Shown here piece after piece: positions 3,206 through 64,000 of a DNA stretch of 64,000 nucleotides. Under the pieces are notes generated by a model. It saw nothing but the letters and a program-made list of their open reading frames with translations. It was not told the DNA's origin and searched no databases. This DNA comes from Heterodontus francisci (lineage: Eukaryota). A program made the translations under genes and the position numbers. The stretch lies in NCBI RefSeq assembly GCF_036365525.1, contig NW_027141721.1:1-64000 (forward strand), in the 5' to 3' direction. Numbering within the stretch: position 1 is the first letter of the stretch; each line of letters starts with the position of its first letter.

Positions 3206-3809
3206 TCTGTACACCAGATTGACATTGGACTCTCATTGACAGGACCTGCATATAAGATCACAGACAGCAGGTGGCAGCAGAGATCAACATTTCATCCAAT
3301 TCCATCATCCTGAGCTCCAGTGAGAAAGACAGGATGGAGGAAGGACAGGGGGCAGGAAAAAAGAAAGTTTGTTTGGGTGAAAAAGGGGGAAAAAAGAGAT
3401 TGAAAGAACGTGACGAGAAAAGAGAGAAGAACTGCAAGAGAAATCCAAGGAAAGAGAAGAGTTTAGGAAAAAGGGGGCGGGAAGGAATGAGAAAGTAGAG
3501 AAAGAAAAAGAGAAGGGAAAGAAAATGGAGAGAAGAAATCAGAACAAGAAAGAAAGACAGAGAGGAAGAGAGATAGAGAGAAAGAAAGATAAACAATAAA
3601 GGAGAGGAGTAGATTGAAAGGAATGACAAAAGGTAGAAAATTGGTCGATACAATAACAGAAAGTTTGATTGGATGAAATAAAAAAATTGATGGAAGAAAA
3701 GAATTAAAGAAAGGATAAAAGAATGATGGGGAGGAAGAAAGATAATTAAAATAAGGAACTGAAGACTGAAAGCATAACTAAATGAATGATATAAAAATGC
3801 TGAAGAAGG

Positions 3810-4330
3810 AAATTCAGCTGCAATAGGCATCACAGACTTTGCTGCACTGACCCAGCAGCCACATTTCCTCTGCATGGAGGGGGCAGGTGCACGGGGCCCA
3901 GAGACAGCGTCTCACCCAGTAGGAAATGAGACAAACATGGGCTCAATCTGCCAGCCTCTGAGCGGAGAGCACAGCAACAATAACAGGTGGCACTTTCCGT
4001 TAAACCACAGGGTGAAACTCGGGCGCAATGACCTATTTTACAAACCGTGCAGCGCGCCTGCATGCAGAAAGCTGAGCTGCACCATTTGAAAGTTCACATC
4101 CCACGGCCTCCGTTTGATATCTTTCCGTGCAGCTGCACAATGTTATTTTCCAGCTCCAGTCTTGTTTTGAGTTAATATTTTCCGGAGGAAATGACACTGT
4201 AACCGAATTTTAAAGTCACAGCACATTATCGCTCCGGTTCACTCAAGCAGGCAATCACTTTAACAAGCAAAATGTTTACCCCCATACAGTATGTAAGATT
4301 TCAGTGAACGTTTGGCCGACTCTGCTCTGT
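3810..4330. promoter_or_regulatory. Candidate TCR beta 3' enhancer
   Basis: Unique-sequence island between purine-rich repeats, 3' of C, with clustered E-box, ETS, Myb and Runx motifs. Confidence 0.5.
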
Positions 4331-4464
4331 CTCATTGATATTTTCCAGTGTTACTGCTGAAATTTTTGCATTTCGGGTTGTTTTTTTTATATATGGAGAA
4401 TTGGAACGGGGAGTGAGCAAGTACTGGGAAAAAAGGGGAAGGGATGTGATTCGAGACCAGATTG

Positions 4465-5165
4465 TGTGTGTGAGAGAAAGAGCTAGGGAGAGCTGGGGAG
4501 AGAGACAAAGAGAGGGAGAGGGTGAGGGGAAGAGGGGGCAAGGGAGCGAGAGAGAGAGATAAACAAACAGAGGGGGCAAGATATGGAGAGAGAGAAAGAC
4601 AGAGGGAAAGAGAGGGGAAGGGATGGAGAGAGAGAAAGACAGAGGGAAAGAGAAGGGAAGCGATGGAGAGAGAGAAAGACAGAGGGAAAGAGAGGGGAAG
4701 GGATGGAGAGAGACAAATAGACAGACAGGATAGAATATGGAGAGAAAGACAGGCAGCGAGAGAGAGAGAGGGTTACAGAGAGACAGAAAGGCAGACAATG
4801 AAAAATACTGAGGAGTCAGCAACTTGGAAAACGGTAAGCGAGGTGATAGAGAGAGAGGGGGAGGGGAGAGAGAGAGACAAACATGGTGAGTGATGGGGAA
4901 TTAAGCAGGCAGCGCACAGGAAGAGGAAGAAATGGGATAGAAAGGAAAAGAGGTAGGGGAATGGCTGTATAAGAGATACAGAGAGAAAGAAGGGATAAAT
5001 GAAAGATACAGGGAGAGAAAAATAGAAAGAGAGAGGGAGAATGATAGTGGGGAATAGAAAAAGAGAGAAAGATGCAGGGCATAGAGAAAGGCAGGGGACG
5101 TATGGAGACAGAGAACTGGTGAGATAGAGAGACCAGGAGCTAGAATAGTGGGTAGATAGAGCTGA
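4465..5165. repeat. GA-rich low-complexity tract (also 3325-3810)
   Basis: Purine-rich degenerate (GA)n/GAGGG repeats. Confidence 0.9.
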
Positions 5166-8637: not shown

Positions 8638-8744
8638 CTTAGTTTTCCAAGCAATTGTTGAGATGAAAATTGCATAAAAGATGCTTTTGCAGATGAGGAT
8701 CAGGTATGTCAGTTTTGCTGTTGCCATGCTTTGGATTTTCGCCT
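8638..8744 (-). CDS. TRBC: TRBC exon 3 (transmembrane)
   Basis: EAKIQSMATAKLTYLILICKSIFYAIFISTIAWKTK. Has the TRB transmembrane Y-x5-K-S-x2-Y motif with the CD3-contacting Lys. Acceptor ttacag|, donor |gtaaga. Confidence 0.96.
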
Positions 8745-9544
8745 CTGTAAAATAAATGTAACAGGAAATGTTGCAATCTCTGTTCTCTCAAGGCAAGAAA
8801 TGCTACTGCGTGAAAATGTAATGTGTGTCAGTGAAGGAGCCCAATGTAAGGGTCGAGCTGCGAAAGCAGAACTGATCTCCCTTTGACGCAAGGAGCCCTG
8901 GGGTATTCCTTACTACAAATGGAGTTCAGCAATATGGCCGATCTGAATTGGGGCCGCTGTAACTTATGTGTCAGCTATGGCTCACGTATGTATCAGCTCT
9001 AGCTGAGTGGGTAACGCTCTCCTGTCTGAGTCGTACGATTGTGGGTTCATGCCCCAGTCCAAAGACATGAACCCCATAATCCAGACTGACTCTCCCAGTG
9101 CCAGCAGACAGCGTGTGTGCTGCACTGCAACTTTGGAGGAACCTTCTTTGAGATGATGTGTTAAACTAATTTAACCTCTGGGAAGTGGAACTGTCCCTCT
9201 TATCTCCACGCCAGATTCACACTATCAACTCCCAAGGAATTGTAAGTTTTAAGACAGGTGTACACAGCTCCCTCCCCTCCCATCCCCAGGCGTCCCCTCT
9301 CCCTCATCACAGGGCAACATATTTCCCTGAGGTCGTGAACCCAAGAGGACCGTGAGGTTATATCATTCGACTAGGCTGGTCTCGAAATTCCAACGGCCTT
9401 TCCCTCCCAGAGGAGTTTTCTCATAAACTCGTTGTGCATGATAGTATGTATAACTGTAAAACTACAGCTTGGAAATGTTGAAATGAGTATATACATGAAA
9501 TGTCTGACACAGTAATAATTCCAGAATTATTGGTGAATATTTTT

Positions 9545-10458: not shown

Positions 10459-10809
10459 CTGCTTTGACAGCTAATGTTGAACTGCTTGTTGTAGGCACTG
10501 ATTCGTTAGTGTAGAGATCTACTCTGCACTCAACGTTCTTGGACCGAGCCCAATCTAGGGCGTCGAATCTCAGCCGGCTGCTGATGCTGTAAGATGTGTT
10601 TTCTTTTGATAGGATGGCATTGAGATCAGTGTGAATGTTCGTGTCATTGGCATCTTTCTCCTTGCCATCGACAAGCCAGTGGATCTTGATGTTGTCGGGG
10701 TAGAAGTCGCTTACGAGGCAGACCACAGTGGCTTTTTTCTTTTCTCTAATCTCTTCGGGAGAGGGCTCAAAGACAGTAACTTTGGCAGGCCTAATCGTAT
10801 CGTTTTCGC
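10459..10809 (-). CDS. TRBC: TCR beta constant region exon 1 (Ig C1 domain)
   Basis: Translates (G)ENDTIRPAKVTVFEPSPEEIREKKKATVVCLVSDFYPDNIKIHWLVDG...YSISSRLRF...W...VECRVDLY...AVKA. Contains the TRBC motifs VFEPS..EI...KAT.VCL..FYPD and SSRLR. Acceptor cctgcag| and donor |gtaagc, phase 1. Confidence 0.98.
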
Positions 10810-10902
10810 CTGCAGGAAAAGTAAATGGAGAGAATATGGATGAGTATGAAACCCGTCTTGAGAATTTTAAACCACCAAACAATATCAACCTTTCAATTCT
10901 AG

Positions 10903-15227: not shown

Positions 15228-15279
15228 CCAACACTGTTAATTTGGAACCGGGGCCAAAATGAAAGTTAGTAGTTACATC
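15228..15279 (-). CDS. TRBJ: J segment DVTTNFHFGPGSKLTVL
   Basis: FGXG motif. RSS cacaatg-12-cagaaaact (15280-15307). Donor gtaagt. Confidence 0.93.
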
Positions 15280-15915
15280 CACAATGCTACATTCCTATCA
15301 GAAAACTAGGATTGCCTAACAGTTCCCGTAGACTGCCAATGCAGTAGCTTGTTCCCTATATTTATTTAGTATGCCAAGAAAGCAAGTAGTGAAATTGTTA
15401 AACTGTTTGGACATTGCCAAGTACCTCTCACTTTGAATTCTGATTTGAAATAGTGTTTCAGCATAAATGTAAGTCAATTCCTTATGCACTCAATTTAGTT
15501 ATTTTCTTGAAGGAAGACTAGGTGAGTTTGCCATTTAGTATCTAATCTTCTACAACCTTGACTAGATCTAGTCTTTGTTTATTACATTCAATCATTTTTG
15601 TTGGGTCAGTGTGTTAAAGGTTATGGAACCAAAGACGGTAGCTGGAGCTAAGATAAAACTCAGCCATGATTTAAGTGAATGGTGTAAGAGGCTCAAGGGA
15701 TGAATGGTCCTTTGTGGCTTCTTGTGTTTGATTGGAGTCCTTTCAAAATCGTTGAGTCGGGTTTGCATCTGTTATAAACTCGACAGTGGCCCTTCCTGAG
15801 TTCAGCCTTTAAGATAATCACTACTAGTTGAGCCTTGCCTCTCTGCTTTTACATTGGTGAAGATTAATGCTTTTACATTGACCACTGGGGGGACACATCG
15901 CTCGGTTTTACATAC

Positions 15916-15971
15916 CCAGAACTGTTAATCTTGTCCCATCGCCAAAGCGGAGAGGTGTGCTGTTTCCAGCA
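15916..15971 (-). CDS. TRBJ: J segment AGNSTPLRFGDGTRLTVL
   Basis: FGXG motif. Heptamer cacagtg 15972-15978; best nonamer attaaaact follows an 11-nt spacer. Donor gtatgt. Confidence 0.93.
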
Positions 15972-16527
15972 CACAGTGTTACAAGCAGTATTAAAACTGC
16001 TGGGGACCAATGATTACACGATACTTCATCGAATGCTCTGACACCTTTGAACAATTATAATTCAACCAATTGCAATGTGTAGATTTGTCTGTCCTTTTCT
16101 CCACCATTCCATTTTAAAGCAGAGAAATTATGGTAAAATTTGCTTAGACGTTCTTGGAGCTCTGTGCACAGTTCTGGTCTCCATATCCCTCGGTTAGACC
16201 ACACTTGGATCACTGTGCACAGTTCTCGTCTTCATACATATTTACCTATCAGGAAAGACTGAATAGCCTTTATGATAGATAAGAGAAGGCTTAGAGGTGA
16301 CCTGAAAGAGGCGTCTAAGATTATGAAAGGGTTGGGGGGTTCCAGAGGGTAGACACAGAGAAGTCTGGTAACGTTGTCTTTGCAAAATTGTGCATCTTGG
16401 GATACAAATTTACTCAAGTTTTCCAGTATGTGGCCAGGTTTGTGAGTTTTGGCAGAATTACGAAGCAATGAATGAACACTTAGAGGGAATTAAATTTGAA
16501 TATTGAGATCTATTCTTGTTCACCTAC

Positions 16528-16576
16528 CTAGAACGTAATCCCAGAGCCAAAGTAAGAGATCGAGGTCCCAGCTGCA
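16528..16576 (-). pseudogene. TRBJ: J pseudogene (AAGTSISYFGSG then frameshift/stop)
   Basis: About 7 nt missing after FGSG, so that frame hits TAG. RSS cacaata-12-tgtaaaact and donor gtaggt are retained. Confidence 0.85.
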
Positions 16577-16609
16577 CACAATATCACAGGCCAGTTGTAA
16601 AACTACCAG

Positions 16610-17155
16610 GGCCCTCAGTTACGCCTGAGCTGGAGTCTCGTGCCCAATTCAGGGCACCACACTTTTGGAAGGATGTCAAGGTCTTGGAGAGCGTGCAGAG
16701 AGAGATTTACTGGAATGGTCCTAGAAATGAGGGACTCAGTTATGTGGACAGACTGGAGAAGGTGGGATTGTTCTCCCAGAGAAGGTGAAGGAGAGATTTA
16801 ATAGTTGATTTCAAAGCCACGAAGGGCTTTGTTAGAGTCAGTAGGGGGAGACTGATTCCACAGGCCGGAGATTTCACAACCAGAGAACATAGATTTAAGG
16901 CAATTGGCAAAAGATCCAGATGTTTATTGAGGGGCCATTTCTTTACACAACGACTTGTTATGATATGGAATGCATTACCTGAAAATGTGATAGATACTGA
17001 TTGCATATTGAACTTCAAAAAAGAATTGGAGCATAGTTCAAAAAGGCGAAAATTGCAGGGCTGTATAGAAAGAAAAGGGGTGAGGGAGGCGAATTGGAGA
17101 ACATTTCCCAACAGCCGACTCGAGTAAGATGGGCCGAGTGGTATTCTTGTGTCCA
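16610..17155 (+). mobile_element. CR1-like LINE 3' fragment
   Basis: APHFWKDVKVLESVQR and FFTQRLVMIWNALP. Confidence 0.8.
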
Positions 17156-17754
17156 ACATGCATACTTGTCGAATTATTTCCATCAACTGTTTTTTTTAGA
17201 AGTCTGTCCCATTATCAACAGTGAGCATTCATTCCAGAAGATCACTGTTTCAGGACGTTAATCATAACAAGCTGAACAAACTCTGTTTCAGAATGGGATT
17301 GAATTTTATACGGATGAAGGCAAAGCACAATCTTCTAAAACAAAATCGAAGCGGTCATTTTTATTAATTAGTGTGAGGTTAACAATTTTATGCGGCAACA
17401 GCTCAGAATTGTTGACTTAATTTTGGCTGCAAGCCCATAAAGTATGGATTGACAAAAGTATTAGGGTCATGTCTTTCCAGCCATGTCTATCCTGGATTCT
17501 ACTCCACCCAATAACCCTCCTGAGAAAAGAGCCTGAGGAATGTCTCCCAATTCCAAAACAATTCAGCCAATCACAAGAAGGCATTTCCAACATAACATTC
17601 TACGTTGGACAACCCAATGCACTTCTCTGTCGGTTTAATGTCACACAGCATTTTCTATATTTTTGAAAGGATAATAAGATTGTCGATGTGCTGGTTGATA
17701 ATTCGAAAACTGGACACTAATGGGAAACTACAGAATATGATGATAGACTATCCC

Positions 17755-18275
17755 TTCTTCTTTCTTTTCTTTCTTTTGGGCCTACTTATCTCGAGAGACA
17801 ATGGATACGCGCCTGGAGGTGGTCAGTGGTTTGTCAAGCAGCGCCTGGAGTGGCTATAAAGGCCAATTCTGGAGTGACAGGCTCTTCCACAGGTGCTGCA
17901 GAGAAATTTGTTTGTCGGGGCTGTTGCACAGTTGTCTGTCCCCTTGCGCCTCTGTCTTTTTTCCTGCCAACTACTAAGTCTCTTCGACTCGCCACAATTT
18001 AGCCCTGTCTTTATGGCTGCCCGCCAGCTCTGGCGAACGCTGGCAACTGACTCCCACGACTTGTGATCAATGTCACACGATTTCATGTCGCGTTTGCAGA
18101 CGTCTTTATAGCGGAGACATGGACAGCCAGTGGGTCTGATACCAGTGGCGAGCTCGCTGTACAATGTGTCTTTGGGGATCCTGCCATCTTCCATGCGGCT
18201 CACATGGCCAAGCCATCTCAAGCGCCGCTGACTCAATAGTGTGTATAAGCTGGGAGTGTTGGCCGCTTCAAGGAC
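17755..18275 (-). mobile_element. RTE-like LINE 3' end inserted in J cluster
   Basis: QRRLRWLGHVSRMEDGRIPKDTLYSEL...CSTCGRACHSRIGLYSH C-terminal motif followed by an (AAG)n-like tail. Confidence 0.88.
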
Positions 18276-18310
18276 TAGTTAGACAAACAAAGTCTTTAAC
18301 ATTTACATAC

Positions 18311-18366
18311 CCAAAACTGTGAGCTTGGTCCCTTGGCCAAAATATAATGGTTCGGTCTTTCCATAA
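18311..18366 (-). CDS. TRBJ: J segment YGKTEPLYFGQGTKLTVL
   Basis: FGXG motif. RSS cacagtg-12-tacaaaact (18367-18394). Donor gtatgt. Confidence 0.95.
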
Positions 18367-19036
18367 CACAGTGTTACACTCCCATTACAAAACTATTACC
18401 CTCCAGACAACCTATTGCACCAGGAGGCGGCCATTCAGCCCCTCTATCCTGCTCCTCTATTCAAAGGCTGATCTGTACCTCACTTCATTTACCATTCTGA
18501 TCTCGATATCCCTCGATAACCTCCCCAAACAAAGTTATTTCCATCTCAATTTTGTCAGGTCTAATCGCCCTCCAGGATTCACAGCTTTTTGTTGAAGAGG
18601 GAGTTCCAGAGATCTTTTACAATCAATTATTATCATGTACTTTTACTACGGATTCCTCTGCGAGAGGTGAAATCAGAGGGTTTTCCATCAAAATATCTGA
18701 TGTTCGACATCCCAGTACGGCGTTAGTTTCACATAAAAAGCTACAATGAGATTCTTGATATTCCCATTGATAACTAGAATACTGGAGAGTTGTGGGCAAT
18801 CACAGAATATAACAATAGACCAACAAATGGCTTTATCAAGTTTGACTATCCCAGTGGATAGTGAATGGAACAATTTAACAATAGTGTTACTCTAAAAGAG
18901 AAGCAAATTAATCTCTTTTAAAGGCAGGCTGGAGATTGGGTCAAATCATGAACTAAACCCTCTCCACTCCCCATTGCAGGCAACATAATAGCAATTAAAC
19001 TGTAAAATGAATACAATGGTGTAACCGTTCACCTAC

Positions 19037-19089
19037 CGAAAACTACTATCTTGGTCCCATCGCCAAAAGTATAATCGTAGTTATTTGAG
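19037..19089 (-). CDS. TRBJ: J segment SNNYDYTFGDGTKIVVF
   Basis: FGXG motif. RSS cacagtg-12-tttaaaact (19090-19117). Donor gtaggt. Confidence 0.95.
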
Positions 19090-19560
19090 CACAGTGATGC
19101 CTGTCAGTTTTAAAACTCCCATCTAGTTAGAAATGCTAAAATGCACCGTCTTCGAAATGATGTACTCAAATTGTAGATTTACATACTATTAATGTGTGAT
19201 GTAAAGACAGCGGCAATGCACCCGAGATATTGGACAGGAGAACAAAAGGTTAGTTATAGGGCCTGGTGGAGGTTACAGAGACAGCGAGATTTGTCGGGAT
19301 TGGAGGATGTTACAGGGATAAGGAGAGTTATAGAGGCTGGAGGCGGTTACAGGGATAGGGAGACAGCGAGGCCTTGGGGTGAGTTGAAAACAAAGGTGAA
19401 AGATGTTTAAACCAAGATATTGCAGGTTCTGCTGCCAATATAAATCGGCGAGGTGATCCTGTGACCGAGAACATGATGTATTTTAGAGCATCTAATTTCG
19501 TCTGAGAATCTCAAGGATCCTCATTGACGAAAACAACAAAAGCTTCAGTTCTGTGCTCAC

Positions 19561-19613
19561 CTAAAACAATCAATTTTGTCCCGTCACCGAAGTAATACAG
19601 AGTATTTCCTGTA
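19561..19613 (-). CDS. TRBJ: J segment TGNTLYYFGDGTKLIVL
   Basis: FGXG motif. RSS cacaatg-12-agtataact (19614-19641). Donor gtgagc. Confidence 0.95.
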
Positions 19614-20669
19614 CACAATGTTACATGACAATAGTATAACTACAGGTCGAAGAGCAATGAAGCTGGTGCACTGATGCAAAACTTCACACACAATGCACTG
19701 GCGATTTGACTCTTTATGTCAAGGGCATTATAATGTTAATTAGAAAATCATTGTGAGGAATAGAAAGGGAAGTTCGTTACTCAGATAGTGGTAATAATGT
19801 GGAATGCACTACCACAGGGAATGGGTTGAGGTGAATTGTGGAGATGCTTTCAAGGAGTGAGTTGGAAAAAGACATGGGAGAGAAAGGAATAGAAGATTGG
19901 ATGAAGTAAGGGTGAGAGGAGGCTCGTGTGCAGTTTCACCACTGGTTTGCTTACACACTGTAAATTCTATATAATTAAATGTAATTATGATGTTTTATTT
20001 CACTCATTCTGGGGGAAGAACGATGACAGCATTTTTTGGAAACAAATAATCTGCCCTCTGAGAAAACGGTTAATAAATCTGCTACTGCCTCCCTGACAGG
20101 ACTGCGGAAAGACCTACACCCCATTGAGTGCAGGGGCGATGGTTGCAAAGTGATAATGTTACTGTGCTAGTAATGTTCTGGTTCAAATCCCGAGGGTAGC
20201 TAGAGGAATTAAACTTCAACTGATAAATGAAAGTCTGGTTTAACTGCATGAAACTATCGTCAATTGTCAGAAAATCCCGCCTGTTGTCAGAGAAGTGACT
20301 TCAGACTTCAGTTGACTCGCAACTGCCTTCTGAAACATCAAACCACCCAGTCCAAGAGCAATTAGGGTTGGCCAACAAATCTTGGCCTTGCCAGCGACGC
20401 CCATATCTGATGAAAAAAAATGAGCTCGCAAACCACTCAGAGGGCAATTAGGGATGGGCAATAAATTCTGGTCCACATGCCACGAACGAATTAAAAAAAT
20501 GTCTTTCCCTGTGCATCTTAGTATTTTCCATGTATTCTGGCTTTTATGCACATTGGAAATGCTGCCTGAAATTTTTTTGTTACTTGTCAATGCAACATTT
20601 CAGTTGCAAACTGAAACTCAGAAACAGCGTGAGCTGCAATCATTGTTTTTCAAAGAACGTCCAACTCAC

Positions 20670-20722
20670 CCAACACAGTCAGTTTTGTCCCGTCACCAAA
20701 GAAATAGTCGTAGCTTCCAGAA
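20670..20722 (-). CDS. TRBJ: J segment SGSYDYFFGDGTKLTVL
   Basis: FGXG motif. RSS cacagtg-12-tactaaact (20723-20750). Donor gtgagt. Confidence 0.95.
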
Positions 20723-21024
20723 CACAGTGTTTCAGCCCTGTTACTAAACTAGACTGGTCCCTGAAAAGTTGCCGAATATTTGAGTGAATAATACAGCTCT
20801 TGTTTGTTTGTCCATAGTAAGCTAAATGGGAGAAATTTTCCCTTCTTTAAACACATATCCAGTTCAAGAATCAGTCTTTCTCCTTCTCTCTCTCTCTGTC
20901 TCTGTTTGTATCTTAAATGCATTGGAAAAATGTCTTTCACCAATGAACCCGGAGCCTTAAACATCTTTCCGACCATTTCAGACAACATGCATTCTCAGAA
21001 TTGGCCTAACATTCCTGGACTCAC

Positions 21025-21074
21025 CTGTCACAACTAACTTGGTACCGCTTCCGAAGTAATATTGATTGCCAGAA
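21025..21074 (-). CDS. TRBJ: J segment SGNQYYFGSGTKLVVT
   Basis: FGXG motif. RSS cacagtg-12-aacaaaacc (21075-21102). Donor gtgagt. Confidence 0.96.
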
Positions 21075-22121
21075 CACAGTGAGAGACCCTTGTAACAAAA
21101 CCTCACAAGGCGAGGTGCAGGTCTTGTCTATATCACACTTGGACCCTGTCCTCGAAAGCGTTTGTAGATCACATCTCCTTAGTTTATATATCTCCTAATT
21201 TACATTTGTGGCTCACGAGCAAGGTCATAGAATCAGAAATATCCATCACTGAAGGGGAGACCATTCGGCCCATAGGACCTCTGCTGGCTTTATGAAAGGT
21301 TTTACCATCGTCCTGTATATTTCCCTTCGAGTATCTATCAATTTCCATTTTGAAAGTTTCTACTGAACCAACTTCCACCACCAGTTCAGATATGCCTTCC
21401 CGATCCAGTAACTACCTCTGTGGGAGAATGTCTCTTCATCCCGCCACTGGTCCTTTATGTCAATTGCCTCAAAACCTGTGTCCTCTGGTTACCGACCCAT
21501 CTACCAATGGAGACTGTTTCTGATTATTAATTCTATCCAAAACCTTCACTAATTTGAACACCTCTATTCAATCTCCATTTAACCTTTTCTGTTCTCCAGT
21601 CTCTCCAACTATCTGAGGTCCCTCATCTCTGGTACAATTCTGGTGAATCATTTCTGCTCCCAATCTAAGGCCTCGACAACCGTCATAAAGTGTGGTACCC
21701 AGGACTGAACACAATACTCCAGCTGGGACCTTACCAGTGATTTGTAAATGTTAATCCTCACTTCCTCACTCAACACCTCGTGAATTCTTAACCAATAATG
21801 GTGCGTTCCAGCATCATCAACTGGTCACTTCAAACATCTTGACCCTTTTTTTGACCAAGCTCACTCTCTATCTCACTCCTCGTATTAAACCAATAGAGTA
21901 ACATTCGGGACAGGGGTAGGCCATTCAGAGTCTGATTTCCCAGACAGCTATCACTTGTTGATTTCCACACACACAATCGGTCACAGTGAAGAAACGGATG
22001 GCAGCTGAATAGGGAATTTGATTAGCGTTATCTTCATATATTAATCTTGTAAATTTCAATCAGACTATACCATATCAGACCGTGCGGAATGATTCTCACT
22101 GACGCCACGTTAATCAGTTAC

Positions 22122-22173
22122 CTAAAACCACGAGGTTTGTGCCATCGCCAAATGTGTAGTCATTGTTCCCTGA
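22122..22173 (-). CDS. TRBJ: J segment SGNNDYTFGDGTNLVVL
   Basis: FGXG motif. RSS cacaatg-12-aacaaagct (22174-22201). Donor gtaact. Confidence 0.94.
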
Positions 22174-22606
22174 CACAATGTTACACAGTTGTAACAAAGC
22201 TAGGGAATCTTTAACTCTCTACACGCCGGTTAATTAAGCGCAGTTGCATCGTTTTGTATTGGGTTGCATTTGTTACCCCGCCCTTTCCCTCTTTACCTCT
22301 TTTTGTTATTTCTTTTGTCTTTGTCTCGACCTCTCCCATCTTTGTCTCTCTAATTTTCCGTCCCCTTTTCCCTGCATTTTGCTCCCAATCTGTCTCTCTG
22401 TAGATAAGGTTTGCCTCCCTAACCTTCCTCCATTTCCACCTCGCCATTGCCCTATGTTTAGTTGTTTTAACTGTTGCTTCGTTACTCTTTGTTTTTTTCT
22501 AAAGTTTATGGTCTCTCCCCTTTCTTCAAACTGACGGGGACAAACTGGCCGACAGTTTTAATAATTGCTGAGACCACTGATATGTTTCAACAAATATCTC
22601 ACTCAC

Positions 22607-22664
22607 CCAGGACTGTTAACTTAGTGCCGTCTCCAAAATATGATAGCTGGGTATTTCCTGCACC
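22607..22664 (-). CDS. TRBJ: J segment GAGNTQLSYFGDGTKLTVL
   Basis: FGXG motif. RSS cacatca-12-acaaaaaca (22665-22692). Donor gtgagt. Confidence 0.95.
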
Positions 22665-23214
22665 CACATCATCATGTGACAACACAAAAACATTCCTCAA
22701 TAGCGCCCTGCCAGTTTTCAGTGTCCATCTCATTAATATTTGATATTGCCCTTTGACTAACATGAGCTGACCATACAACAAAGTACACGCATAAAATAAC
22801 CGGGTGGGGAGGTGGGGGAGAGGGGGCTTGACCATTAAAGCTAGCAACATTCACAGTGCCGTCTATCTATCCATCTGTGAATATGTTAGATGTCCACAGA
22901 TACAGTGCTTATAATACTGGAAGATTTTACATGGAGTTGTTCATAATTATTAATTAACTTCTACACACAAGTTGGGGACCAGATAGCTCAGTTGTCTAAC
23001 GTGCCAGTTAGAAAAATGCTTACAGAACGGGTTCATTTCTCACCGTGTCTGGGGAAGGCAAGGGGAAGCCTCCTCATAGACACTGCTCCAGATTCATGCT
23101 CCTCTCTCCTGCTGGAGAAAAGGAGCAGAGAGCCAGTACATCAGATGACCACCAGCCTGCACAGACAAGATGAACCCAGCATCCCTGGCTTCATTGAATG
23201 AAGGTCTAACTCAC

Positions 23215-23271
23215 CCAATACTGTTAGAGCCGAACGTTCTCCAAAATGTAAAGGCTGGTAGCTCCCGCCTG
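23215..23271 (-). CDS. TRBJ: J segment GGSYQPLHFGERSALTVL (non-canonical FGER)
   Basis: Open frame. RSS cactata-12-accaaaaca (23272-23299). Donor gtgagt. Confidence 0.88.
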
Positions 23272-23426
23272 CACTATACTAAACAACATTACCAAAACAC
23301 ACCTTTGGATAGACCGATACACCGACAGAAAAGTAGCTACGTAGATCGATAAACATAAAGATGGATACACAGACCGATACATTGTGGATGATGGAACAAT
23401 AGATGTTTATATCGACGGTAACGTAC

Positions 23427-23476
23427 CTAAAACAGTTAACTTGGTACCAGCTCCGAAGTAGTAAATATCAGAAGAG
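23427..23476 (-). CDS. TRBJ: J segment SSDIYYFGAGTKLTVL
   Basis: FGXG motif. RSS cacaaag-12-atcaaaacc (23477-23504). Donor gtacgt. Confidence 0.95.
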
Positions 23477-25012: not shown

Positions 25013-25026
25013 CTAAAACCACCAGT
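25013..25026 (-). pseudogene. TRBJ: J fragment (3' end LVVL plus splice donor only)
   Basis: Identical to the 3' end and intron of the J at 33287. The remainder was lost by deletion. Confidence 0.85.
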
Positions 25027-25088
25027 AAGCTTGGAATGCACACAGCTTGACATGAAGGTAGAGAGAACAAAATACCCCTTTATCTTAC

Positions 25089-25139
25089 CTAACACCGTCA
25101 GTTTGGTGCCGGTCCCGAAATTGAGTGGTGTGCTGGTAG
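25089..25139 (-). CDS. TRBJ: J segment TSTPLNFGTGTKLTVL (first J after D2)
   Basis: FGXG motif. Weak RSS cacatca-12-gcacgaacc (25140-25167). Donor gtaaga. Confidence 0.92.
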
Positions 25140-25644: not shown

Positions 25645-25657
25645 TCCCCCCTGTCCC
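25645..25657 (-). other. TRBD: D segment D2: GGGACAGGGGGGA
   Basis: 5' 12-RSS (plus cacggtg-12-acaaaaaag, 25658-25685) and 3' 23-RSS (minus CACTGTG-23-ACAAAAACC, 25644-25606). Near-identical to mammalian TRBD1 GGGACAGGGGGC. Confidence 0.97.
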
Positions 25658-38046: not shown

Positions 38047-38080
38047 AATTAACGAAATTGGCTGCATTGGCGATCGATGG

Positions 38081-44030: not shown

Positions 44031-44332
44031 ATCACTAGCAGCACAGTAATACACCGCCCTGTCAGTCTGATCCACCCTCAGTATTTTCAGGCTGCAGGTT
44101 TTAAGATCGGGTCTGGTGACCTTAAATCTCTCCTTGAAACCCTCTTCAGGGCTGGTATCAGAGGTGCCAATCGAGGTCACTATGAGCAGTAACCCTGCTC
44201 CGCTCTGCTGGCGATACCAGTACATGTAACTGTCGCTGGTGTCATTCTGGAAACAGTGCATTTCCACCGTTTTCCCCTCTGCGACCGTCAGCCGGTTCCC
44301 CCACTGGGTAACGAGAGTGCTCCTGGACCGGG
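44031..44332 (-). CDS. TRBV: V exon, family A copy 1 (D-proximal)
   Basis: ARSRSTLVTQWGNRLTVAEGKTVEMHCFQNDTSDSYMYWYRQQSGAGLLLIV...DRAVYYCAASD with both Cys, WYRQ and YYC. 23-RSS CACAGTG-23-TCAAAAACA (44030-43992). Acceptor ccacag|. Confidence 0.97.
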
Positions 44333-44646
44333 CTGTGGAGGAACATGAGAAACAGATCGGGTCAAAGAGAACAGACACAATAAGGAGAGAGAGAGAGATT
44401 TAATGGTAAAGCTCACGATGCACACCACAGTCGATCAGCTCGCTGCCGCCCCAGCACAGGGGTCATGTGCTGATTCCCAGAATCGCTGGGCACAACTGCA
44501 GCGGTGCTAAATAACGACACTTGTCCTCAACAGTAAAACCAAACCAGTAAATCTCTAACTGATTGGAGCCCTTCGATATCAACAGGAATTGTGTCTCAAA
44601 GCTGATTAACTGGGGCCTGAATTTCCCTCCAAGTAGGAGCAGTAAC

Positions 44647-53520: not shown

Positions 53521-56428
53521 TAGCAATGTAGTTCACTGTTAACTGCCTCTGAAATGGGCTGGCAAGTCATTCAGTTCAGGGCAATTCGGCATAGGTAATG
53601 AATTCTGACCTTGTCAGTGATGTGCACATCCCTGAATATGTGCTTCTTTATATAAAATTCCTCCTTCTCCATTTTTCTTTCACTGTTTTCTGACTTTGCT
53701 TCCCCTCTTTACTTCCTTCAGATCATCTGTTTTAGTATATCACAAGTGTTGGTCAAACCAGTCACTATGAACGAGCAGACTTGGGGAAATCCAGTTGTCC
53801 ATTTTGTGTGGAATGGTTATGATTTTAATCTGTTTCAGAGTTAGTGGAATTGACTATTAGGTAGATGGGTCAAGTCACTGCTGCATTGCTCGCTCAGTCT
53901 CTCCAGAAGCAAGTGGGACTCAGGCTGCGGTGGAGCTCCATCCCCATCTCGTGGCTGTAATGTGTAACTACAGGCACCTGAGATTTGCAAAGTGCAATTG
54001 ATAAAATAGGCATTATGAAGACATGCTTTGAAATTGCTCCGTCTTCCCATTTTTTATCCATTGCTTCAGCTGGTGACGCTAGTGACATCGAATTAGATAG
54101 AAATTGCAGCACAGATTCAGGCTATTCGGCCCGATGGCCCCACGTTCCAGACTAGCCTGGGGCAGATGGTGATGTCGTTGTCATGTCACTGAGCTGGTGT
54201 ACCAGAAGCGGGGATGAATCTCCAGGGGACATGCGTTAGAATCCCACCAGGTCAGATGGTGGAATTTAAATTCAATTAATGAATAAATGCAATTATTTCA
54301 TCAGAAAATCTGCAATTGAAAACTAGTCTCAGTTCAGGTGTCCTGACACCCAGCTGGCTCACTCATGTCTTTTCGGGAAGGAAATCATCCGTCCAAACCC
54401 GCTCTGAAAACCTCAACATACTGAGTTTCACCTCCTCAATGAACAGACCTGATTAATACAGCCCCTTCACCAGCGCAGTGAGGATATCACAACATGTCAG
54501 TGTGAAGCCTTCTGTTCTGAAAACTGTCTCTCACTTGATCACATGAAGTGAGCACCAGATCTCCCGTTATTCCACCTGGAAACAGGGAGCACGGGAGTGG
54601 GGGGCGGGGGGAATGTTCCTTTAGACTTGGCACGATAGATGTGGGAGTTGTGCTAAAGTCACGATGGAAATTCAGGCTCTCTCCTAGTTTCCTACAAACA
54701 CCTGGGCCAATGTAATTGCAAAATAGAACCTGGAAATCTACAAACTGGCATCTGGGTGCAAATATTTCAAGTTTGGAATGATATAAATGTCACTTAATGC
54801 CCCCTAAACAATCATATTAAAGGCTCATCTACGGGATATCAAATCATTGAGTTTTTTTTTCGCATTGCCGGAATATATTGTGTGAAATAGGTGAGAAGTG
54901 AAAAATTTCAGAAGCAGCCAAGTTGACCTGTGGAGCTGCTGTGGGGAAAGCTCACTCTGTCTGAGCATGTTCTCGGCAGCGGCTGCAGTGGAGTAACACT
55001 GGCACCTAGTGGCTCCAGCTGCAACTGCAAGCACCGATTCTGCAGGCGTTTCAGTGTCAGACCCTGAACCTGTTTCAGTCATTAGTTATCTTCTCCTACT
55101 CGACTCGTTTTGGCGCTTGTGGCACAGAACTAGATGGAAGTTAGTGCACAGATCCGCGCCATTCGGCCTGACAGCTCCCTGCTTCACTCAAGCCTCAGCC
55201 AGTCAAATACATATTGAAGTGCACTGTTGTCATGTCGGTAAGGAGGCAGACAAGCTGCAAGATCAAGTGCAGCGTTATTCATAAAGAAAAGGGAGTGGGA
55301 GTAATTGGACAGGGAGGGTGAAAACCAGGGATCATAAATGTAAGGTAGTCCTTAATAAATCCAATTCGGAATTCAGGAGGAGGTTCTTTAATCCAGGGAA
55401 CGTTGAGAATGTAGAATTGACGACCAAATGGAATGGGTTGAGATCGAATAGAGACGATGCAGTTAAGGGGGGAGCTGATTAAATACATGAGTGAGAAAGG
55501 AATAGAAGAATCTGCTGATGGTGCAAGATAGAGAGAGATGGGAGGAGGTCGCTCTTTCGAACAGCCAGGCCAGGATCGTTGGGCTGAATGGCCTGGATCT
55601 ATCCTGCATGATTCTATGATCCAATAAGACCCGTCAACCTGCTGCCTTGTTTCAGGGCCAAGCCAGTTTCATTTCCCCCCTTGTGCTAAACGGGAGTTAA
55701 AGGGTTAAGTTCTTCACCGCACTGAACTCCAGTCACTGTGAAAATTCTTCAAAAGACCCCGAGAGACTGAGAGACAAATGGGTTAACAGTTTTGAACAGA
55801 TGCTGAAGCCGCCATCTGGAGGCAGGTGTTCCAGTCAGAGACGGATCTGGAGAGGTTTCTCGCCTTTGCACTGTATGAATCATCAGAGACATGATTAAAG
55901 GTTCCAAGATCAACCATTTCCTATTTGTATGGACGTGAGTCCATTAGAGTAATGAGGGTAAGCGGAGATTTGAAAGACGTGGTCAGATGTGTCTTGATAG
56001 AGAAACTGTATCCAGAGGGTGGTATCGTCTGTCAGGAGGGTCGATAAACCAGGGACCAAGAATTGAAGGTAATTGGGAAAGGAACCAGAGTGGGAGATGA
56101 GTGGAATCTTTCTCCTCAGTGAATTGTTATCATGTGGAGGGCACTGACTGAAAGGGCGGTGGAAGACCATCCAATAGTAACTTCCAGATGTCAATTGGAG
56201 AAGTAGATGAAGGGGAGATTTATTAGTGCAATGGAGAACTAGTCAGTGAATGGGAACTAGTTAGACAACTCTGTCAAAGAGCCAGTTCATTCAACAGCAG
56301 ACATAGAAACTGACAGATAGTCAGAGTGATAGAATAACACCCCAGATAGACAGGTCTATCTCCCATAAGTGAGTTCTGTCAATGTTTAGAGTTTTTGCTG
56401 AACTCCGGCGCCTTTCTGAGTCACTGTG

Positions 56429-56727
56429 CTGACTCCAGGCACAGTAATACACGGCTGATTGATTCGCCAACAGGCTGGAGGACTCCAGGTAAAAATGGGT
56501 GTTGTCGGGTATCCTAGCGGTGAAACCGTCCACCTCACCGGAGGGGTTGACCGTTCCGGCGGGGTAGGAATAGAAAAGATTCTCGGGCTCACGGTCCGGA
56601 TGCCACCGGTACCAGTAGAAATAGGACGTAGCAGTTGCTTCAGTGTAAATACACTGGATCCTGACTGGAGATCCTGGGGAATGGGATATGGAAGCAGGAG
56701 TCTGTTGGATCAACACGGCCCCCACTT
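56429..56727 (-). CDS. TRBV: V exon, family B copy 1 (CAWS type)
   Basis: EVGAVLIQQTPASISHSPGSPVRIQC...WYRW...LFYS...FYLESSSLLANQSAVYYCAWS. 23-RSS CACAGTG-23-GCAAAAACT (56428-56390). Confidence 0.97.
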
Positions 56728-58930: not shown

Positions 58931-61031
58931 GAACTCTCTCCAGCTTCCGGGTTAATTTATTATTTTGCACCATTCTGCAAAAGCAAACCCGCTGTTAAAA
59001 CCTCAACATACTGAGTTTCACCTCCTCAAAGAACAGACCTGATTAATACAGCACCTCCACCAGCGGGGTGAGGATATCACAACATGTCATTGTGAAGCCT
59101 TCTGTTCTGAAAACTGTCCCTCACTTGATCACATGAAGTGAGCACCAGATCTCCCGTTTTCCACCTGGAAACAGGGAGCATGGGGGGCAAATGTTACTTT
59201 AGACTTGGCACGATAGATGTGGGAGTTGTGCTAAAGTCAGGATGGACATTCAGGCTCTCTCCTAGTTTCCTATAAACTCCTGGGACTATGTAATTGTAAA
59301 ATACAAACTGGAAATCTACAAACAGGCATCTGGCTGCAACTATTTCAAGGTTGGACTGATATTAATGTCACTTAATGACCCCAAAAGGATCCGATTTAAA
59401 GCTCATCTACCTGATATCAAATCATTGATTTGTTTGACATTGCCAGAATATTTTGTGTGAAATAGTTGAGAAGTGAAACATTTCAGAAGCAGCCAAGTTG
59501 ACCTGCAGAGCTGCTGTGGGTAAAGCTCACTCTGTCTGAGCATGTTCTGGGCAGCGGCGACAGGAGAGTAACACTGGCACCTAGTGGCTCCACGTGCAAC
59601 TGCAAGCATCGATTCTGCAGGCGTTTCAGTCTCAGACTCTAAAATTGTATCAGTCATTGGCTTTATCCTCCTACTCGACTCCCGTTTGCGCTTGTGGCAT
59701 AGAACCAGATGGAAGTTAATGCACTCTTCCGCGCCATTCGGCCCGACAGCTCTCTGCTTCACTCAAGCCGCAACCAGTCAAATACATTTTGAAGTGCAGT
59801 CACTGTTGTAATGTCGGGAAGGAGGCAGACAAGCTGCAAGATCAAGTGCAGGGTTATTCAGAAAGAATAGGGAGTGGGAGTAATTGGACAGGGAAGGTGA
59901 ACACCAGGCATCATAAATGTAAGGTTGTCCTTAATAAATCCAATTGGGAATTCAGGAGGAGGTTCTTTAACCCAGGGAGCGGTCAGAATGTGGAATTGGC
60001 GAACAACTGGAATGGGTTGAGGTCGAATAGAGACGATACTGTTAAGGGGGGAGCTCAATAAATACATGAGTGAGAAAGGAATAGGAGAATCTGTTGATAG
60101 GGTAGGATGAAGAGAGATGGGAGGAGGTCGCTCTTTCGAACAGCCAGGCCAGGATCGATGGGCTGAATGGCCTGGATTTGTCCTGCATGATTCCATGATC
60201 CAATAAGAGCCGTCAACCTGCTGCCTTGTTTCAGGGCCAAGACAGTTTCATTCCCCACCCACACCTCCCCCCCCTTCCCCCACTTATACTAAACGGGAGC
60301 TAAAGGGTTAAGTTCTTCACCGCACTGAACTCCAGTCATTGTGAAAATTCTTCAAAAGACACCGAGAGACTGAGAGACAAGTGGGTTAACAGTTTTGAAC
60401 AGATGCTGAAGCCGCTGTCTGGAGGCAGGTGTTCCAGTCAGAGACGGATCTGGAGAGGTTTCTCGCCTTTGCACTTTATGAATCATCAGAGACATGATTA
60501 AAGGTTCCAAGATCTACCATTTCCTATTTGTATAGACTTGTGTCCATTAGAGTAATGAGGGTAAGGGGAGATTTTAAAGATGTTGTCAGAAGTGTCTTGA
60601 TAGAGAAACTGTATCCAGAGGGTCGTATCTACTGTCAGGAGGGTCGATAAACCAGGGACCAAGAATTGAAGGTAATTGGGAAAGGAACCAGAGTGGGAGA
60701 TGAGTGGAATCTTTCTCCTCAGTGAATTGTTATCATGTGGAGGGCACTGACTGAAAGGGCGGTGGAAGACCATCCAATCGTAACTTCCAGATGTCAATTG
60801 GAGAAGTAGATGAAGGGGAGATTTATTAATGTAATGGAGAAATAGTCAGTGAATGGGAACTAGTCAGACAACTCTGTCAAAGAGCCAGTTCATTCAACAG
60901 TAGACATAGAAACTGACAGATCGTCAGAGTGTTAGAATGACACCCCAGATAGACAGGTCTATCTCCCACAAGTGAGCTCTGTCAATGTATAGAGTTTTTG
61001 CTGAACTCCGGCGCCTTTCTGAGTCACTGTG

Positions 61032-61330
61032 CTGACTCCAGGCACAGTAATACACGGCTGATTGATTCACCCACAGGCTGGAGGACTCCAGGTAAAAATG
61101 GGTGTTGTCGGGTCTCCTGGCGGTGAAACCGTCCACCACACCTGAGGGGTTGACCGTTCCGGCGTAGCTGGAATAGAAAAGGTCCTGAGGCTCACGGTCC
61201 AGATGCCATCGGTACCAGTAGAAACAGGAGCCTGCTGTTGCTTCTGTGTAAATACATTGGATCCTGACTGGAGAGCCTGGGGCATGGGATATGGAAGCGG
61301 GAGTCTGTTGGATCAACACAGCCCCCACAT
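61032..61330 (-). CDS. TRBV: V exon, family B copy 2
   Basis: VGAVLIQQTPASISHAPGSPVRIQC...WYRW...AVYYCAWS. 23-RSS CACAGTG-23-GCAAAAACT (61031-60993). Confidence 0.97.
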
Positions 61331-61650: not shown

Positions 61651-62919
61651 CTCTGGAGGGTGAAGGATCCGTGTGGTTTTATATGAAACGACTGAGCACT
61701 TTTATTGTCGAGTATCCCAAAGTTCTGGGCACTGACTGGAATTTATAGCTTCCGTCTCCATCATCTTCAACACTTGCCTAGGCGGAGCCAAGCTTTCTTT
61801 CTTTGCTCATGGGCTCACCGAGGACTCGTCATTTCTGGGGAGGGACCAATGTTTGACCCCTAGCTCATCGGTTTCTATGCCTGCTTTTCTGTTTCATGTC
61901 TTTGAAAGTTGCAGAAGGGAAGGGAGTAAATGTGATTTAAACTATCTTCTGTGGTGGAGAGGTGATTAAATGGGCGGGTGTGTTGGGATCATCAATACCT
62001 TCAGTACTCCCCTGATCATAACCACATTCATCCTGACACCATCCTCACACTCATCATTACCATCTGAGGACACATTATCACCCTCGTCCCGACCGCCAGT
62101 ATCTGTGTCAGCCTTACCCTCAGCAGCCTCATCACCATAAAGAGATTCTCACTCCATCATCATTATCAAGCTTGTTCACTTCCAATTGTATCTGAATGTA
62201 TTCAGTGATGGGATGTGTGCATTGCTGGGAGGGTCATTTCAGAAAAGCTGAGATGTTACAAGAGTAAATGTTCACTATCTTTCTTAAATATCCATCAGGA
62301 CTCGGTAACAATGGAAATGTTAAAGGTTAGACCAGGAGTGGGAGTGACAACTTAACTATTCCATAAATGTACTTGACATGAAGTGGGAAGACCATGGATG
62401 AAATGGGAAACATTCCAATGTATGTGGATTGAATGAGCAGTGGTCTGGTCCATCATCGCACCTCTAACCTTCTGGATTGGGCTCTGGGACTTTTTGGAAC
62501 CTTGTTTTTTCCAATGCACAGCTTCTCCCACATCTCCACATAGCTGAAACCTCTCACACCCGGTCACCTCCTTGTAAATCTCCTTTGCACCCTCTCCATC
62601 CTCCCTACAATGTCATGTACAGAAGTGGACACGCTAAACCAGTTAGGCCAAAACAGGCTTTTTATAAAGGGTTTAGCATCAATTTGTTGCGTTTATGTTG
62701 CATTCAAAATTGCGTTAATTCTGCTTAATCAGAGAAAATAGTATGAAATATGCATTTCGGTACGACATTTTTGGTCGGTGGATTTGGTTTGACTTACCTG
62801 AATTATTTTGGCACTGAAGTGTCAGCCTTTTTATTGGCTCCAGTCTGCGGAGTGGGTCCTTCTAACTTCGAGAGGAGAGTTCTACCCACTCAGGCAGCGC
62901 AAGTTGATTCTTGAGTACC

Positions 62920-63470
62920 TCACCTCCTGACTCCCCAAAGCCTGTCCACCATCTATAAGGTACAAGTCAGGAGTGTGTTGGAATACTCTCCACTCGAGTG
63001 CAGCTCCAACAACAGTGAAGAAGCTCGACAGCATCCAGGACAAAACAGCCCGCTGGATTGGCACCCCATTCACAAACATTCACTCCCTCCACCACCAACG
63101 CACTGTGGTAGCAGTGTGGACTATATACAAAATGCACTGCAGCAACTCCCAAAGGCTCCTTCGACAACACCTTCCAAACCCGCGACCTCTGCCACCTAGA
63201 AGGACAAGGACAGCAGATGCATGGGAACACCACCACCTGCAGGTTCCCCTTCAAGCCACATGCCATCCTGACTTGGAACTATACCGCCGTTCCTTCACTG
63301 TCGCTCTGTCAGAATCCTGGAACTCCCTTCTTTACAGGACTGTGGGTGTAGATACCCCACATGGACTGCAGTGGTTCAAGAAGGCAGCTCACCACCACCT
63401 TCTCAAGGGCAATTTGGGATGGATAGCAAATGTTGGACTGGTCAGCGATGCTCACATCTCAATAAAGAAT
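62920..63470 (+). mobile_element. LINE 3' fragment (CR1/L2 clade)
   Basis: KKLDSIQDKTARWIG...HSLHHQRTVVAV.TIYKMHC...FTVA.S.SWNSL. Same family as 660-1055. Confidence 0.82.
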
Positions 63471-63844
63471 TTTTATAAATCTGTAAATGAAGCGAAACGG
63501 CTTCCGTAGGCAGAAGGCAACCGGGAGACATTGATTAAATGTAACTGGCAGATGCATTAGTGGGGGGAGGGGGGAGAAGTGACGTTTTATTTAAGCAGCG
63601 AGTTGTTATGATGTGGCTAGCACTGTCTGAAAGGGTGTTGGAAGCACTTTGAACAAGAACGTTCAAAAGGGAATGGATTGTACACGTGAATGGAAACAAT
63701 GTGCACGGCTATGGGAGAGTAGCAGGGGCGAAGAGCATTAACTGGATAGTTCTTTCAAATAATGCAGAGATGGGCCGAATGGTCTCCTTCTCTGCTGTTA
63801 TCCAAGATGATTCCATGACCTGTTTGCAGAAAATGAGCGGAGAG

Positions 63845-64000
63845 TCAATCTACTGCCTCCCCCTGCCGGTGGAAGATGAGCACCGAGATTCAATGTACTG
63901 CTGCCCCCCCTGCTGGTGGAAGATGAGCACTGAGATGCAATCTACTGCTGCCCCCTGCCGGTGGAAGATGAGCACTGAGATTCAATGTACCGCTGCCCCC
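63845..64000. repeat. About 45-bp tandem repeat carrying a CTCF-like motif, truncated by window end
   Basis: Unit approximately aatctactgctgccccctgccggtggaagatgagcactgagattc, 3.5 copies visible. Confidence 0.88.

What the first reader, a model, noticed from the sequence alone, without database searches (positions are those of the whole stretch)
3264..63965. Oriented CTCF motifs resemble mammalian antigen-receptor loop architecture
Seen, against consensus CCRSYAGRKGGCRS: plus-strand sites at 3264-3277 (3' of C and the candidate enhancer), 38081-38094 and 39368-39381. Minus-strand sites at 39459-39472 (exact match) and in the V array at 55000-55012, 55809-55822, 59575-59587 and 63948-63961. V-array sites point toward D, the V-D interval has an opposed pair about 80 bp apart, and 39459 with 3264 bracket the D-J-C domain convergently. 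Known: the same logic applies to Igh IGCR1/3'CBEs, Igk Cer/Sis and Tcrd INT elements. Inference: loop-extrusion control of V(D)J recombination already existed in sharks.
Basis: partly seen in the sequence, partly recalled or inferred. Interest (0 to 1): 0.75.

Follow-up and report, generated by a model that had tools for sequence, protein, structure and literature searches.

The report
Mouse-like CTCF layout at shark TCRβ
A horned-shark T-cell receptor beta locus carries seven independent CTCF-type motifs, about seven times the chance count, placed and mostly oriented as in the mouse locus, so they likely fence off the D-J-C region by chromatin loops, although binding, cross-species conservation and any effect on gene rearrangement are untested.

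Summary
The window is a horned shark TCRβ locus on the minus strand. All eight cited motifs are present; two start one base earlier than stated. A full scan gives 10 matches at ≤1 mismatch against 0.9 expected. After removing a cassette duplicate and a tandem array, 7 independent sites remain against about 1 expected. Three of the 7 carry TGCA at the offset of the upstream motif read by CTCF fingers 9-11.

The IGCR1/Cer-Sis comparison fails on geometry: the 39368/39459 pair is convergent, not divergent.

Orientation bias is not significant (6 of 7, P=0.06). One site is destroyed in its duplicate. No second species or ChIP data was reachable. The V segments lie only 9-26 kb from D1, so insulation is more likely than long-range contraction. 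CTCF-oriented looping is already reported in skate. The sites are probably real; control of V(D)J recombination remains an inference.

The parts
3264..3277 (+). CTCF core motif facing V, 4.4 kb 3' of the Cβ stop codon; TGCA at offset -17 (3247), 5 of 9 match to the upstream motif; positional analogue of mouse CBE3
   Evidence: stop codon read directly at 7666-7668
38081..38094 (+). CTCF core motif facing V, 3.25 kb upstream of D1; TGCA at offset -18 (38063), 6 of 9; positional analogue of mouse CBE1
   Evidence: low-depth bins
39368..39381 (+). CTCF core motif facing V, 4.5 kb upstream of D1; starts about 12 bp beyond the end of a high-copy repeat; no upstream motif
   Evidence: repeat-derived contigs diverge at 39356 (table 7)
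39459..39472 (-). Strongest CTCF core motif, exact match, facing D; convergent with 39368 (77 bp away) and with 3264 (36 kb away); no counterpart among the three mouse Tcrb D-J-flanking sites
54999..55029 (-). Two-part CTCF site facing D: core 54999-55012 plus upstream motif 55021-55029 (8 of 9 match at offset -17); about 0.4 kb 5' of a V-like remnant
   Evidence: spacing from probes
59574..59604 (-). Duplicate of the 54999 site; core and upstream motif identical, 2 substitutions in the 8-bp spacer
55809..55822 (-). CTCF core motif facing D, 69 bp from an orphan 23-RSS-like element; the paralogous position 60412 has 3 mismatches, so this site is doubtful
63840..64000 (-). 45-bp tandem array, 3.5 copies up to the window edge; each full unit holds a D-facing CTCF core (63856, 63903, 63948)
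10460..10810 (-). TCRβ constant exon 1, 100% identical to a Heterodontus francisci T-cell receptor protein (P0005)
8638..8745 (-). TCRβ transmembrane exon
15230..34310 (-). Jβ region (15 FGxG-type matches) with D2 inside it; no ≤1-mismatch CTCF motif between 3278 and 38080; ends approximate
34817..34829 (-). Dβ1 between 12- and 23-spacer RSSs
25645..25657 (-). Dβ2 between 12- and 23-spacer RSSs; no strong CTCF motif upstream of it
44031..44333 (-). Vβ segment nearest D (RSS at 44030, 9.2 kb from D1); 98% identical to the V part of P0005
48189..48491 (-). Second Vβ segment, same family (RSS at 48188)
56429..56719 (-). Third V segment, a distant family (RSS at 56428)
61032..61322 (-). Fourth V segment, duplicate of the third (RSS at 61031, 26.2 kb from D1)

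Best explanation
The window is a horned-shark TCRβ locus with seven independent CTCF-type motifs laid out much as in mouse Tcrb; most are likely bound by CTCF and would stop cohesin so as to fence the D-J-C domain off from the nearby V segments and from flanking DNA. In this model 39459(-) and 3264(+) would anchor a 36-kb loop holding D, J, C and one enhancer candidate. 39368(+), 38081(+) and 3264(+) would catch loops from the D-facing V-array sites (54999, 59574, the 63840 array). The convergent pair would work as a two-way boundary whose loops overlap by about 100 bp. Because V segments lie only 9-26 kb from D1, the main job is more likely insulation (D-to-J joining first, damping the nearest V) than bringing distant V segments in. 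Shown: locus identity, motifs, enrichment, positions, orientations. Inferred: binding, loops, any effect on recombination, and common ancestry with the mouse layout.
For: Enrichment: 7 independent sites vs about 1; with a recalled JASPAR-like matrix, 10 sites score ≥14 vs 1.2, 0 of 150 block shuffles. Upstream motif: published probes place TGCAGTTCC 17 bases before the core. TGCA stands at -17 or -18 in 3 of 7 independent sites against a 1.3% background (P=8e-5), and at no offset from 12 to 22 in the 20 weaker matrix hits. In the duplicated cassette (8.1% substitutions) the 54999 core plus upstream motif has 0 changes in 23 bases against 13 in 88 spacer and flank bases (Fisher P=0.04, post hoc). 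38081 and 39459 lie in bins of depth about 90-180 while repeats in the same stretch reach 1e3-2e5, so they are not high-copy repeat sequence. Mouse Tcrb has all V sites facing D, and 5'PC, CBE1 (3 kb upstream of Dβ1) and CBE3 facing V; 6 of 7 sites here fit that rule. Lamprey CTCF binds the same two-part motif and skate TAD borders show oriented CTCF motifs.
Against: Orientation alone is not significant (P=0.0625). 55809 carries the only 2 substitutions in 55780-55850 between the duplicates, both in its core. The 63840 array may be an ordinary minisatellite. Neither member of the 39368/39459 pair has the upstream motif (4 and 5 of 9); matches at 3264 (5 of 9) and 38081 (6 of 9) are reached by 10.7% and 2.6% of background positions; -18 is not the spacing of the probes seen. 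Against the cassette-wide rate, 0 changes in 23 bases has P=0.14. The genome-wide density of such motifs in sharks is unknown; at an assumed 3 per 60 kb, 7 has P=0.03. The two D-proximal V segments have no strong motif. The strongest site (39459) points the opposite way to all three mouse D-J-flanking sites. No second species held the stretch. In mouse Igh, inverting the VH81X element only modestly lowered its use, so orientation need not predict function.
Confidence: 0.55

Rival explanations
1. The sites are real CTCF elements whose main job is to wall off neighbouring, near-identical TRB units from each other: 3264(+) closes one unit and the tandem array or the next unit's sites close the other side, keeping recombination and enhancer action inside one unit.
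For: Five H. francisci gene models carry a 99-100% identical constant exon; two share the same longest-contig length. Three of them (P0006, P0008, P0009) run through the same V-D interval. Window 343-1811, beyond 3264, is collinear with the V-array stretch 51340-52694 at 74-84% identity.
Against: An N gap at 2080-2305 separates that stretch from 3264. The gene models may be haplotypes or assembly versions. No V, D, J or C of a next unit lies in the window. A review describes cartilaginous-fish TCR genes as translocons. This reading is compatible with the best explanation and not exclusive of it.
Confidence: 0.2
2. The sites are bound but are ordinary genome-architecture elements with no role in V(D)J recombination; the resemblance to mouse Tcrb is coincidence from few sites.
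For: P=0.0625 for the orientation pattern. V-D distances of 9-26 kb need no long-range folding (inference). No motif lies beside the two nearest V segments. 55809 is lost in its duplicate.
Against: Three sites fall within 1.4 kb in the V-D interval and none in the 35-kb D-J-C domain. 38081 matches mouse CBE1 in side, distance and direction.
Confidence: 0.17
3. The motifs are unbound chance or repeat-borne matches.
For: Three matches come from one minisatellite and two from one duplication. A further 2-mismatch hit (63230) lies in a dispersed repeat with a copy at 826-960. There is no binding evidence.
Against: 7 independent sites vs about 1 under four kinds of null. Upstream-motif signature. 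Flanks of 3264, 38081, 39368 and 39459 have no other copy in the window, and two of them lie in low-depth bins.
Confidence: 0.08

Closest known systems
Mouse Tcrb CTCF-element layout (18 V-region CBEs; 5'PC, CBE1, CBE3); PMC10772921, PMC5859386
   Same: Same receptor chain. V-region sites face D-J-C. A V-facing site about 3 kb upstream of the first D. A second V-facing site further upstream. A V-facing site 3' of C.
   Different: The shark has an extra D-facing site (39459) in the V-D interval, where all three mouse sites face V. The second V-facing site is 4.5 kb from D1, not 27 kb. V segments are 9-26 kb away. Mouse sites are ChIP- and Hi-C-proven; these are motifs only. Which side of 3264 the enhancer lies on is unsettled.
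Mouse Igh IGCR1 with 3'CBEs; PMC6439775, PMC5859386
   Same: Two oppositely oriented sites a few kb upstream of the first D. The D-facing one is convergent with a 3' site across the D-J-C domain, and the V-facing one with V-region sites.
   Different: IGCR1 is divergent with sites about 2.6 kb apart (3.1 and 5.7 kb from DFL16.1); this pair is convergent and 77 bp apart. One 3' site is seen here, not a cluster of nine.
Mouse Igk Cer/Sis; PMC10121685, PMC5859386
   Same: CTCF sites of both directions between V and (D)J; a small regulatory loop around J-C-enhancer.
   Different: Cer (V side) faces V and Sis (J side) has J-facing sites, so they point apart; here the order is reversed. Igk V-region sites are in both orientations.
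CTCF-oriented TADs in little skate (PMC10115646); two-part CTCF motif in lamprey (PMC5504073)
   Same: They show that the motif and the orientation code exist in this part of the vertebrate tree.
   Different: The passages seen do not treat antigen-receptor loci.

Membership tests
Vertebrate CTCF-binding element | Core motif match above chance | tested here: met
   10 vs 0.92; 7 independent vs 0.58-1.17
Vertebrate CTCF-binding element | Upstream motif at the finger 9-11 offset in a subset of sites | tested here: met
   TGCA at -17/-18 in 3 of 7; a strong match (8 of 9) only at 54999/59574; offset
Vertebrate CTCF-binding element | Occupied by CTCF and cohesin in vivo | not testable with these tools
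   None of the 8 runs listed was labelled as ChIP (4 had no library on record)
Vertebrate CTCF-binding element | Conserved above flanks | tested here: inconclusive
   54999 kept in its duplicate (P=0.04-0.14), 55809 lost. None of 40 listed differences fell in the three V-D cores, but 48 more were not shown. No second species.
Mouse Tcrb CBE layout | Locus is TCRβ with V-D-J-C order | tested here: met
Mouse Tcrb CBE layout | All V-region sites face D-J-C | tested here: inconclusive
   3 of 3 independent sites (6 of 6 matches), P=0.125; the V region may extend beyond the window
Mouse Tcrb CBE layout | All sites flanking the D-J region face V | tested here: not met
   3 of 4; 39459 faces D
Mouse Tcrb CBE layout | V-facing site about 3 kb upstream of D1, and one 3' of C | tested here: met
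   38081 is 3251 bp from D1; 3264 is 4390 bp past the stop codon
Mouse Tcrb CBE layout | 3' site lies beyond the enhancer | tested here: inconclusive
   Motif scans flag one candidate at about 3700-4200 (inside) and another at about 1300 (outside)
Mouse Tcrb CBE layout | Loops between V and D-J sites; loss alters V usage | not testable with these tools
   Needs Micro-C and editing
Igh IGCR1 | Pair of divergent CBEs between V and D | tested here: not met
   39368(+) then 39459(-) is convergent; IGCR1 is divergent
Igh IGCR1 | D-facing member convergent with a 3' site across D-J-C | tested here: met
   39459(-) and 3264(+)
Igh IGCR1 | Prevents V-to-D joining before D-to-J and damps proximal V use | not testable with these tools
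   Functional test
Igk Cer/Sis | V-facing sites on the V side, J-facing sites on the J side | tested here: not met
   Order reversed here
Tcrd INT1/INT2 | CBEs that loop to TEA to bound the Dδ-Jδ domain (partly recalled) | not tested
   Only passing mentions seen; not the orthologous locus

The most novel reading that the evidence does not exclude
The CTCF layout of Tcrb (D-facing V sites, a CBE1-like site 3 kb upstream of D1, a CBE3-like site 3' of C) is inherited from the common ancestor of sharks and mammals. Its first job was insulation in compact, tandemly repeated TRB units: a convergent pair 77 bp apart separates V from D, and 3' and tandem-array sites keep each unit's recombination centre away from its neighbours. 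Long-range contraction in mammals would be a later use of the same elements.
Probability: 0.22. Interest if true: 0.78.

Novelty: new variant of a known kind. Interest (0 to 1): 0.5.

Why it matters
CTCF control of V(D)J recombination is worked out in mouse, and five searches found no paper on CTCF sites at a shark antigen-receptor locus (open-licence library only, listings read). If these sites are bound and conserved, the architecture goes back to the base of jawed vertebrates. A locus with V segments 9-26 kb from D would separate the insulating role of these elements from the contraction role. It also gives a concrete handle on how sharks might confine rearrangement within repeated receptor units. 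The general point that cartilaginous fish use oriented CTCF loops is already reported for skate, which limits the surprise.

Tried and rejected
No whole genome is held for this window, so the shark genome-wide motif background could not be measured. Cross-species conservation: the one run search (38050-40200) listed 8 runs of a single coded organism; 4 of 8 hold the stretch, all one sample. Laying those 4 on 38030-39900 showed 40 differences, none in the three cores or the 38081 upstream motif, but 48 more were not shown and about one hit was all that 40 could be expected to give, so this is inconclusive. Gene model P0009 translates through 39318-39497 with the residues over both cores unchanged and changes just beside 39368; the whole stretch is too similar for this to count. 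Weaker + hits at 44662, 49320 and 50147 read as V leader coding exons (read directly) and were set aside; 63230(-) lies in a dispersed repeat and was set aside. Counting them would add three sites against and one for the D-facing rule. At ≤2 mismatches, enrichment is marginal. CpG content is raised at 39368/39459 (0.80-0.86, above the 95th percentile of 300-bp windows) but not at the other sites; not used as support. Absence of strong motifs in the 35-kb D-J-C domain is not significant alone, since under one is expected. Two papers sought (one on the upstream motif, one shark genome paper recalled to hold CTCF ChIP) are not held. Earlier scan notes held nothing.
Full report
LOCUS. The window is a T-cell receptor beta locus on the minus strand. 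The exon at 10460-10810 translates to a constant domain 100% identical to a Heterodontus francisci T-cell receptor protein, P0005, and 52-61% identical to the other sharks' hits in that search. An RSS scan found two D segments flanked by 12- and 23-spacer signals (25645-25657 and 34817-34829) and V-type 23-spacer signals at 44030, 48188, 56428 and 61031. Fifteen J-type matches lie between about 15.2 and 34.3 kb. The transmembrane exon is at 8638-8745 and the stop codon reads at 7666-7668. The V segments are 9.2, 13.4, 21.6 and 26.2 kb from D1. N gaps lie at 2080-2305 and 35944-36190.

OBSERVATION. All eight cited motifs are present; two cited intervals are one base short. A full scan at ≤1 mismatch gives 10 matches against 0.92 expected, with 0 of 100 shuffles reaching 10. 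At ≤2 mismatches it gives 21 against 13.8, with 5 of 100 reaching it. With a matrix recalled from JASPAR MA0139.1 (from no call, approximate), the same 10 sites are the only ones scoring ≥14, against 1.2 expected (0 of 150). They are not all independent: 54999 and 59574 sit in a duplicated cassette, and 63856, 63903 and 63948 are units of a 45-bp tandem array that reaches the window edge. Collapsed to 7 sites, the excess holds against three Markov nulls (0 of 300 each) and against column-permuted motifs on the real sequence (2 of 2000). These nulls do not include the genuine CTCF sites that any vertebrate window carries; at an assumed 2 or 3 per 60 kb, 7 has P=0.005 or 0.03. The shark background could not be measured.

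ARE THEY REAL SITES? Published probes place the finger 9-11 upstream motif 17 bases before the core (passages of PMC12885311 and bioRxiv 10.1101/2023.12.05.569896); the first paper says the linker varies from 2 to 7 bp, and my use of -18 as the second common spacing is recalled. TGCA stands at -17 or -18 in 3 of the 7 independent sites (3264, 38081, 54999/59574) against a 1.3% background, P=8e-5, and in none of the 20 weaker hits. I noticed this pattern before testing it. Only 54999/59574 is a strong match (8 of 9); the other two are 5 and 6 of 9, and the 39368/39459 pair has none. Between the duplicated cassettes, the 54999 core and upstream motif have 0 changes in 23 bases against 13 in 88 spacer and flank bases (P=0.04; P=0.14 against the cassette-wide 8.1%). 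Against this, 55809 has both of the only two local substitutions in its core, and its paralogue has 3 mismatches. Public contigs of one sample put 38081 and 39459 in low-depth bins (about 90-180) beside repeats at 1e3-2e5, and repeat homology ends at 39356, just before 39368. The flanks of 3264, 38081, 39368 and 39459 have no second copy in the window. No second species held the V-D stretch, and the list of differences was cut at 40 of 88, so conservation is unresolved.

ORIENTATION. Every + site lies at or left of 39381 and every - site at or right of 39459. I use the usual convention that a motif written on the + strand points to higher coordinates (established knowledge, consistent). Then 3264, 38081 and 39368 face V, and 39459 and the V-array sites face D. 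The ordered pattern has P=8/128, and 6 of 7 sites fitting the mouse rule has P=0.0625: suggestive, not significant. The pair at 39368/39459 faces inward with 77 bp between cores.

COMPARISON. The better match is mouse Tcrb. It has 18 V-region elements all convergent with three that flank the D-J region: 5'PC (27 kb upstream of Dβ1), CBE1 (3 kb upstream) and CBE3 (between Eβ and Trbv31) (passages of PMC10772921; passages and the first part of the Discussion of PMC5859386). Here 38081 is 3251 bp upstream of D1 and faces V, and 3264 is 4.4 kb 3' of the stop codon and faces V. The differences are the extra D-facing site 39459, the strongest in the window, and the small scale. CTCF binds the same two-part motif in lamprey (passages of PMC5504073), and skate TAD borders carry oriented motifs (passages of PMC10115646), so loop extrusion as such is already reported for this group.

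MECHANISM (inferred). Cohesin moving from the D-J-C side would pass 39368 and stop at 39459, giving with 3264 a 36-kb loop around D, J, C and the enhancer candidate at about 3.7-4.2 kb. Cohesin from the V side would pass 39459 and stop at 39368 or 38081. The pair would thus be a two-way boundary in spite of its reversed order. With the nearest V only 9 kb from D1 and lacking a strong motif, insulation is the likelier purpose than contraction. A related reading is that the sites wall off repeated TRB units. That rests on a join across an N gap and on gene models that may be haplotypes; a review calls cartilaginous-fish TCR loci translocons (passages of PMC6795676).

NOVELTY AND VERDICT. Five searches found no paper on CTCF sites at shark antigen-receptor loci (listings and abstract starts only, open-licence library). 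The one axolotl paper checked mentions CTCF only as background (passage of PMC9911811). No supplements were read; supplements of shark genome papers might list such peaks. The sites are probably functional CTCF elements in a variant of the mouse Tcrb layout. That they control V(D)J recombination, or share ancestry with the mouse elements, is untested. Interest 0.5.

Noticed in passing
window 1305-1350 and 52190-52240: A duplicated 60-bp cluster of E-box, GATA, RUNX and two ETS-type motifs; the RUNX site survives a substitution between the copies (motif labels recalled). A candidate T-cell enhancer; one copy lies beyond CBE 3264, the other in the V array.
   Followed up: partly
window 343-1811 vs 51340-52694: Sequence 3' of the constant gene is collinear with V-array spacer at 74-84% identity, which suggests tandem TRB units or a relic of one; an N gap lies at 2080-2305.
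   Followed up: partly
window 63840-64000: A 45-bp tandem repeat with a CTCF core in each unit reaches the window edge; it could be a multi-site anchor or an ordinary minisatellite.
   Followed up: partly
window 55740 and 60343: 23-spacer RSS-like elements with no V reading frame upstream in any minus-strand frame of the first copy.
   Followed up: partly
window about 54390-54590 and its copy near 58985: V-like remnant with stop codons at the start of each duplicated cassette; weak matches to other sharks' V domains.
   Followed up: partly
window about 50130-50175: A V leader-like exon similar to those at 44662 and 49320, with no V exon found beside it.
   Followed up: no
window 25027-25970 vs 34179-35145: The D-plus-first-J block is duplicated at 82% identity, giving two D-J clusters that share one constant gene; the duplication does not include the CTCF sites upstream of D1.
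   Followed up: partly
proteins P0006-P0010: Five horned shark gene models with a 99-100% identical Cβ exon; several other sharks also give two hits, which suggests more than one TRB unit is usual in sharks.
   Followed up: partly
window 44799-44808 and 49457: CRE-like sequence upstream of the first two V leaders, resembling the Vβ promoter decamer (label recalled).
   Followed up: no
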